From the human T2T-CHM13v2.0 reference genome, Homo sapiens: a DNA stretch of 64,000 bases. Under the pieces are notes generated by a model. The model made no database searches. It was given only the letters and a program-made list of their open reading frames with translations, and was not told the DNA's origin. The position numbers and the translations under genes were made by a program. The stretch lies in assembly GCF_009914755.1 (NCBI RefSeq), contig NC_060933.1. One strand, 5' to 3'. This document shows, one piece after another, positions 8,631-9,372 of this stretch; the stretch's first letter is position 1, and every line of letters starts with the position of its first letter.

Positions 8631-8804
8631 CTTGTTTAGTGCTTTAATATTTGCATGGTGGGAAAGCAGTTTTTCTGCCAGTGAAGTCCCCTTATTATAC
8701 ACAGCATAATAGAGAGCAGTGTTGCTGTAGATATCCTTAATGTTTGGATTGGCACCATGTTCCAGGAAAATAATGGCACAAGCCTCTTCCTGGCAGTGTA
8801 CAGC
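8631..8804 (-). pseudogene. ANKRD18CP: ANKRD18-family exon 3 (174 nt, phase 0-0)
   Basis: taatag|GCTGTACAC...CTAAACAAG|gtacag; encodes [58 protein letters not shown]. Confidence 0.92.
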
Positions 8805-8901
8805 CTATTAGTGTTAGATAAAAAATTAGACTATAAATTCTAATAATTCAAAATACATATTCCACAGGTTCCACCAACTAGCTAATTTAAATGAGACAAA
8901 T

Positions 8902-9372
8902 TCATTTTAATTCGGTGGAAGAGCCAAGATGGCTGAATAGGAACAGCTCCAGTCTACAGCTCCCAGCATGAGTGACGCAGAAGATGGGTGATTTCTGCAT
9001 TTCCATCTGAGGTACCGGGTTCATCTCACTAGGGAGTGCCAGACAGTGGGTGTAGGACAGTGGGTGCACCACACCGTGCGCGAGCCGAAGCAGGGCAAGG
9101 CATTGCCTCACTCGGGAAGCACAAGCACAAGGGGTCAGGGAGTTCCCTTTCCTAGTCAAAGAAAAGGTTGACAGATGGCACCTGGAAAATCGGGTCACTC
9201 CCACCCTAATACTGCGCTTTTCCGACGGGCTTAAAAAAAGGCACATCAGGAGATTATATCCCGCACCTGGCTCGGAGGGACCTATGCCCACAGAGTCTCG
9301 CTGATTTCTAGCACAGCAATCTGAGATCAAACTGCAAGGCAGCAGCAAGGCCGGGGGAGGGGCACCCGCCAT
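8902..9372 (-). CDS. L1 ORF0 (antisense ORF), open for 156 codons through the L1 5' end
   Basis: ATG at 9372 starts MAGAPPPALLLPCSLISDCCARNQRDSVGIGPSEPG...RVGVTRFSRC, the ORF0 signature. Donors SD1 (9267/9266) and SD2 (9182/9181) are intact. Confidence 0.75.
   Translation of the reverse strand: MAGAPPPALLLPCSLISDCCARNQRDSVGIGPSEPGAGYNLLMCLFLSPSEKRSIRVGVTRFSRCHLSTFSLTRKGNSLTPCACASRVRQCLALLRLAHGVVHPLSYTHCLALPSEMNPVPQMEMQKSPIFCVTHAGSCRLELFLFSHLGSSTELK

What the first reader, a model, noticed from the sequence alone, without database searches (positions are those of the whole stretch)
8631..9372. In-frame L1 ORF0-ankyrin fusion is possible through a phase-0 donor
Seen: ORF0 (ATG 9372) does not stop where the short L1HS form does. 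It stays open to 8902, and a 6-bp duplication at ~9118-9130 preserves the frame. After codon 119 (...SEMNP) lies CCG|GTACCT (9016/9015) in phase 0, and exon 3 begins in phase 0 after a 211-nt intron. This predicts 119 aa of ORF0 joined to [10 protein letters not shown]... and the exon 4 ankyrin repeats (218 aa if it ends at the 3440 stop). The two published ORF0 donors give out-of-frame products: SD1 stops early, and SD2 reads ~55 novel codons to the end of exon 3. Established: ORF0 forms fusion proteins with proximal exons. Caveats: use of this third, weaker donor is inferred, and the long ORF0 may be a general L1PA3/4 trait.
Basis: partly seen in the sequence, partly recalled or inferred. 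Interest (0 to 1): 0.75.

Follow-up and report, generated by a model that had tools for sequence, protein, structure and literature searches.

The report
Ordinary L1 copy, paper-only ankyrin fusion
A jumping-gene (L1) copy inside a broken ankyrin gene has a reading frame that lines up on paper with the gene's next exon, but many sister copies share that long frame and the splice needed to join the two is likely not used, so this is likely an ordinary insertion.

Summary
The sequence facts hold: ORF0 runs 9372-8902 (156 aa), a GT at 9016/9015 is in phase 0, and ankyrin exon 3 (8804-8631) starts in phase 0. The fusion itself is unsupported. The element is a full-length L1PA3 in intron 2 of ANKRD18CP. 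The long ORF0 is a subfamily trait: 19 of 58 sister copies are open to the same site, stops accumulate at the neutral CpG rate, and the private 6-bp duplication is irrelevant. The proposed donor is read through in 27 of 27 published antisense-promoter ESTs that span it intact, at other loci. This locus is already catalogued as a low-level L1 chimeric transcript (8 read pairs) whose mapped blocks reach inside the would-be intron. Read-through ends ORF0 at 8902, before any ankyrin codon. Even if spliced, the product stops at 218, 222 or about 276 aa, and two of these three routes are predicted decay targets. A private mutation also adds a competing donor and a start-stop just upstream of ORF0. 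Worth keeping: L1PA3-type ORF0 is ancestrally about 150 codons and runs out of the element's 5' end.

The parts
8914..15074 (+). Full-length L1 (L1PA3 in hg19 RepeatMasker, 3.9% diverged; long 5' UTR of 1042 nt), ORF1 and ORF2 broken, inserted in intron 2 of ANKRD18CP, antisense to the host
   Evidence: absent from paralogue loci L010-L012
8898..8913 (+). Target-site duplication, left copy (16 nt; right copy 15075-15090); holds the ORF0 stop codon on the minus strand (8904-8902)
8902..9372 (-). Long ORF0, 156 aa unspliced, no Pfam match
9386..9391 (-). Private two-base change creating an upstream ATG-TAA and a new GT donor at 9390/9389, 17 nt before the ORF0 ATG
   Evidence: 0 of 39 relatives; 0 of 19
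9261..9269 (-). SD1 (exon end 9267), phase 1; 57 aa if joined to exon 3
9176..9184 (-). SD2 (exon end 9182), phase 2; 119 aa if joined to exon 3
9118..9130 (-). Private 6-bp tandem duplication, frame-neutral, adds two codons
9016..9030 (-). Internal L1 acceptor (AG at 9030-9029) and the 13 nt up to the proposed donor; SD2 joined to this acceptor keeps the long frame
   Evidence: the same splice is seen in ESTs CF594064 and CF594290 of another locus
9010..9018 (-). Proposed third donor (exon end 9016), phase 0; mirror half of a palindrome whose sense half is the known L1 sense donor near +97
8631..8804 (-). ANKRD18CP exon 3 (ankyrin), splice sites intact, skipped in NR_136286.1; His-to-Tyr change in the TALH motif against paralogues
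   Evidence: gene table in the task
4229..4335 (-). ANKRD18CP exon 4 (ankyrin), 107 nt, ends in phase 2
3438..3456 (-). Cryptic acceptor at 3456 inside ZNF322P1, at the parent gene's exon junction, with the stop at 3440-3438 (218-aa route)
300..365 (-). RefSeq exon inside ZNF322P1; stop codon in the ankyrin frame (222-aa route)
   Evidence: gene table in the task
15143..15257 (-). ANKRD18CP exon 2 (ankyrin), ends in phase 0

Best explanation
This is a full-length L1PA3 inserted in a short intron of the ANKRD18CP pseudogene, carrying the long ORF0 frame of its subfamily, and its antisense RNA likely reads unspliced past 9016 so that ORF0 would stop at 8902 before any ankyrin codon. Shown: the insertion, the frame, its inheritance and neutral decay in sister copies, and stops on every downstream route tried. 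Inferred: low-level RNA from the antisense promoter (or host pre-mRNA) runs through the L1 5' end into exon 3; if it then uses the exon 3 donor at 8631, the stop lies 271 nt upstream of that junction and the RNA would be a nonsense-mediated-decay target. The phase match with exon 3 is a coincidence.
For: 19 of 58 usable sister copies are open to the 9016 site in phase 0 (13 of 39; 6 of 19); 41 of 58 have the in-phase spacing; 18 of 58 stay open to the L1 5' end. Stop-making CpG changes 22 of 115 versus 151 of 851 at other CpGs, p=0.70. 27 of 27 ESTs spanning the intact site read through (PMC4908685 Table S3). Chimera Id_1832 at this L1 has blocks at about window 8690-8963 and 8924-9218, ends inside the would-be intron (offset checked). 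[quoted passage not shown] U1 pairing is weaker at 9016 (-4.3) than at SD1 (-7.2), SD2 (-6.8) or the exon 3 donor (-5.7). Stops at 222 aa (RefSeq exon) and in native exon 6.
Against: No junction-level RNA data for this locus were seen. The 8 read pairs are total RNA, are merged intervals, and could hide a junction between mates. The EST table holds only 546 of 2015 ESTs and, in the rows I read, few loci. By simple consensus match the 9016 site scores 6 of 9, like SD1. A 211-nt intron is close to the native size and the exon 3 acceptor is intact. The first 39 relatives were chosen by likeness to this region, which favours the same frame.
Confidence: 0.8

Rival explanations
1. One reading: antisense-promoter RNA keeps SD1 and SD2 unspliced, splices 9016 to 8804 and is translated into 119 aa of ORF0 plus about two ankyrin repeats.
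For: Frame, GT and acceptor are intact. ORF0-exon fusions are reported for 57 of about 3200 loci (second-hand from Denli 2015). The locus gives antisense reads. The 218-aa route could end at the retrocopy's poly(A) about 4.3 kb on, with no later junction.
Against: 0 of 27 ESTs use the site; two stronger donors must be passed over, plus a private upstream donor and start-stop; RefSeq skips exon 3 and does not use 3456; no ANKRD18 row in PMC4908685 Table S1 or in three supplementary files of PMC10760525.
Confidence: 0.06
2. A double splice, SD2 to the acceptor at 9029/9028 and then 9016 to exon 3, would give a shorter in-frame fusion (68 aa of ORF0 plus ankyrin exons; 167-171 aa on the retrocopy routes).
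For: In frame by calculation; the first splice is seen in 2 ESTs of another locus.
Against: It needs a 13-nt microexon and the same donor; both ESTs read through that donor.
Confidence: 0.03
3. The L1 acts as an alternative promoter that splices from SD1, SD2 or the private 9390 donor to exon 3, giving out-of-frame or non-coding chimeric RNA.
For: SD1 and SD2 are intact and are the published ORF0 donors; products are 57 and 119 aa, none with ankyrin sequence.
Against: Not marked as validated or as known from ESTs in PMC9396940 Table S2; most such transcripts are unspliced.
Confidence: 0.11

Closest known systems
L1 ORF0 and ORF0-exon fusions (Denli et al. 2015; paper not held, seen only through PMC4908685, PMC7746726, PMC13517631)
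   Same: Same start codon region, SD1 and SD2 present, intronic L1 antisense to its host with a proximal exon.
   Different: ORF0 here is 156 aa rather than 71; the fusion would need a third donor that the passages I read do not name; no transcript or peptide for the junction.
L1 chimeric transcripts, Pinson et al. 2022 (PMC9396940), row Id_1832
   Same: This very element (hg19 chr9:99967425-99973584, L1PA3); antisense reads run into the flank.
   Different: Listed without a gene, not validated, start site not mapped; nothing said about ORF0 or ankyrin exons.
Predicted antisense-promoter fusion peptides, Criscione et al. 2016 Table S3 (PMC4908685)
   Same: 14 rows hold the same C-terminal stretch of this frame, some continuing into host exons.
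   Different: They begin at an internal ATG, read through the 9016-equivalent site and leave the L1 by its 5' end; no row holds the middle of the long frame (0 hits for two motifs).
ANKRD18A and ANKRD18B (loci L011, L010; names assigned from chromosome position, recalled)
   Same: Same exon 3-6 layout, 93-94% identical DNA.
   Different: They lack the L1 and the retrocopy and keep exon 6 open.

Membership tests
Full-length L1PA3 (long 5' UTR form) | About 6.1-6.2 kb, target-site duplication, A-rich tail | tested here: met
   8914-15074, 16-nt duplication
Full-length L1PA3 (long 5' UTR form) | 5' UTR about 129 nt longer than in L1HS and L1PA2 | tested here: met
   1042 nt including the 6-bp duplication; 129-bp trait; L1HS length of about 907 nt is recalled
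Full-length L1PA3 (long 5' UTR form) | Subfamily call against a consensus | not testable with these tools
   Taken from the RepeatMasker row in PMC9396940 Table S1; nearest copies 95-97% identical outside the CpG island; L1PA4 not excluded by my own data
ORF0 locus | ATG in good context, frame open through SD1 and SD2 | tested here: met
ORF0 locus | Transcript starts upstream of the ATG and is translated | not testable with these tools
   Listed reads reach only about 9218
ORF0-exon fusion gene | In-frame join through SD1 or SD2 to a proximal exon | tested here: not met
   Both are out of frame with exon 3 and with exon 4
ORF0-exon fusion gene | Observed spliced junction from ORF0 into the exon | tested here: inconclusive
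   None in the tables searched; raw reads not available
ORF0-exon fusion gene | Junction peptide detected | not testable with these tools
   No mass-spectrometry data on hand
L1 chimeric transcript (antisense promoter) | Antisense reads joining L1 5' UTR to unique flank | tested here: met
   Id_1832, 8 read pairs in 5 of 11 samples
L1 chimeric transcript (antisense promoter) | Start site inside the L1, not host pre-mRNA | tested here: inconclusive
   Not validated for this row; the host is transcribed on the same strand (gene table)

The most novel reading that the evidence does not exclude
A third antisense donor is used here, giving a human-specific three-way protein (119 aa of long ORF0, two ankyrin repeats, a tail from the ZNF322P1 retrocopy) on an RNA that ends in the retrocopy and escapes decay; more widely, L1PA3-type elements encode a 150-codon ORF0 that runs out of the element into flanking DNA at about a third of copies.
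Probability: 0.05. Interest if true: 0.6.

Novelty: new member of a known kind. Interest (0 to 1): 0.2.

Why it matters
If true, a pseudogene would be put back into translation by a transposon's promoter and start codon through a donor missing from the ORF0 descriptions I read, and fusion catalogues built on two donors would be incomplete. As it stands the locus is ordinary. The reusable result is that ORF0 has three lengths among copies: about 150 codons (351-nt spacing), about 102 (350-nt) and the textbook 71. That changes which loci and peptides to look for in ribosome-profiling and immunopeptidome data.

Tried and rejected
Duplication as the cause of the long frame: rejected, relatives lack it and keep the frame. 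Selection on the long frame: not seen. Conservation of the GT as a sign of use: rejected, it mirrors the known sense donor and lies in a RUNX3-bound stretch (+83 to +101). Rescue of a long ANKRD18 protein through native exons: rejected, exon 5 is intact and in frame but exon 6 has a TGA and the long coiled-coil exon ends early (297 versus 333-335 aa). The exon 5 rows were one base off and are replaced. The first exon search was too strict and missed exon 6; one search found it. Denli 2015, Speek 2001 and Matlik 2006 are not held. Supplements of PMC12791003 could not be read and may list this locus. No structure was predicted. No MaxEnt scoring was available; U1 pairing energy is a crude stand-in (it ranks an unrelated GT at 9205 highest).

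Full report
Observation. ORF0 starts at 9372 on the minus strand and is open for 156 codons to a TGA at 8904-8902. Codon 119 ends at 9016 and is followed by GT, phase 0. Exon 3 of ANKRD18CP (8804-8631, 174 nt) begins in phase 0, 211 nt further on; exons 2, 3 and 4 each match Pfam Ank and ORF0 matches nothing.

What the element is. It spans 8914-15074 on the plus strand between 16-nt target-site duplications, in what is a short intron in the paralogues, which lack it. The ORF0 stop lies in the left duplication, so the frame runs out of the element. The 5' UTR is 1042 nt, the long type that PMC5860796 assigns to L1PA3 and L1PA4 (passages). PMC9396940 Table S1 lists it as L1PA3, 3.9% diverged. 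I matched that row by chromosome, strand and length; the hg19 position of ZNF322P1 in PMC5010893 gives the same offset within a base or two.

The long frame is inherited. Of the 39 nearest copies (all analysed), 39 keep the ATG, 25 have 351 nt from ATG to the same site (phase 0), 12 have 350 and 2 have 352; 13 are open to the site, 12 of them with the GT intact. All 39 lack the 6-bp duplication. These were picked by likeness to this region, so I drew a second sample on a different part of the UTR: the first 20 of the 34 hits not already sampled. One lacked the region and was dropped; of 19, 16 have 351 nt and 6 are open in phase 0. Overall 18 of 58 stay open to the element's 5' end. In the 40 gap-free 351-type copies, stop-making CpG changes occur at 22 of 115 sites against 151 of 851 at other CpGs (p=0.70): no sign of selection.

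The donor. Reviews describe two donors in ORF0 (PMC13517631, passages; PMC9396940). In PMC4908685 Table S3, 25 of 25 ESTs with the CCG form and 2 of 2 with the CTG form continue through the site; a 28th has it deleted. That table holds 546 of 2015 ESTs, and the rows I read come from few loci, so this is suggestive, not final. The GT is the mirror of a palindrome whose sense half is the known L1 donor near +97 (PMC3192792 and PMC5860796, passages). U1 pairing, computed with a recalled U1 motif, is -4.3 kcal/mol at 9016 against -7.2 and -6.8 at SD1 and SD2; by plain consensus match it ties with SD1 at 6 of 9. A private change at 9390-9389 (0 of 39 and 0 of 19 relatives) makes a new donor of equal pairing energy and an ATG-TAA just upstream of ORF0; either would likely lower ORF0 output.

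RNA at this locus. A gene-name search of PMC9396940's supplements found nothing, but a coordinate search found chimera Id_1832: 8 read pairs in 5 of 11 brain and glioma samples, listed without a gene and not validated. Its blocks map to about 8690-8963 and 8924-9218; the ends at 8963 and 8924 lie inside the would-be intron, so some of the RNA is unspliced there. The data are total RNA and merged intervals: they could be host pre-mRNA, and a junction between mates cannot be excluded. The paper found only 44 (2.9%) of such transcripts spliced at the 5' end. No ANKRD18 row is in PMC4908685 Table S1 or in three supplementary files of PMC10760525. RefSeq's one transcript skips exon 3 (gene table in the task).

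Where a fusion would end. Through the RefSeq exon 365-300: 222 aa. Through native exon 5 (outside the window, intact, in frame) and exon 6 (inferred from paralogues; TGA): about 276 aa by arithmetic. Both have later junctions and are predicted decay targets by the standard 50-55 nt rule (established knowledge). The 218-aa route uses an AG at the parent gene's exon junction inside ZNF322P1, a human-specific retrocopy; it could be terminal, with about 4.3 kb of 3' UTR, but no transcript I saw uses it. It would carry about two ankyrin repeats, one with a His-to-Tyr change in the TALH motif.

Mechanism, committed. Likely: weak antisense transcription reads through the L1 5' end into exon 3; ORF0, if translated, ends at 8902; onward splicing from 8631 puts that stop 271 nt before a junction, so decay is predicted. 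Probability 0.8. In-frame fusion by either route about 0.09; out-of-frame spliced chimeras as the main product 0.11.

Comparison and novelty. It would work like an ORF0-exon fusion but fails the defining test (SD1 and SD2 are out of frame). It is an ORF0 locus and a listed L1 chimeric transcript. I found no description of a 150-codon ORF0 or a third donor in the listings or in the passages read, but Denli 2015, Speek 2001 and Matlik 2006 were not held and may describe both. Papers seen: PMC4908685 (one part of the text, passages, supplement rows), PMC9396940 (section 5, passages, supplement rows), PMC7746726 (first part), passages of PMC13517631, PMC10619931, PMC9252281, PMC5860796, PMC10879037, PMC3192792, PMC5010893, PMC12032326, PMC11846448 and PMC10506190; PMC10760525 (supplement search only); PMC12791003 (listing only, supplements unreadable).

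Verdict. Real sequence, ordinary origin, unsupported fusion. Interest 0.2.

Noticed in passing
loci L002-L008, L029-L060, L068-L087: ORF0 comes in length classes set by one-base indels: about 150 codons out of the element's 5' end (351-nt spacing, 41 of 58) and mostly 102 codons (350-nt spacing, 14 of 58), against the published 71. This suggests stepwise shortening; the order of events was not tested.
   Followed up: partly
window 2073-3281 (-), within ZNF322P1: Intact 402-aa zinc-finger ORF, DNA about 100% identical to the chromosome 6 parent; already described as a human-specific retrocopy with 3 amino-acid changes.
   Followed up: yes
window 300-365 (-): The annotated ANKRD18CP exon lies in the retrocopy's 3' UTR, so a human-specific insertion supplies a stop-containing exon to the host transcript.
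   Followed up: partly
window 8631-8804 (-): Exon 3 has intact splice sites yet RefSeq skips it; the 6.2-kb L1 landed about 110 nt upstream of its acceptor, which may be the cause.
   Followed up: no
L067 6856-7102 (G000:C9:104.98 Mb paralogue): This paralogue carries its own short L1 3' fragment at a different intron position.
   Followed up: no
window near 42545: ANKRD18CP appears in many papers as a cervical pre-cancer methylation marker (search listing); unrelated to this finding.
   Followed up: no
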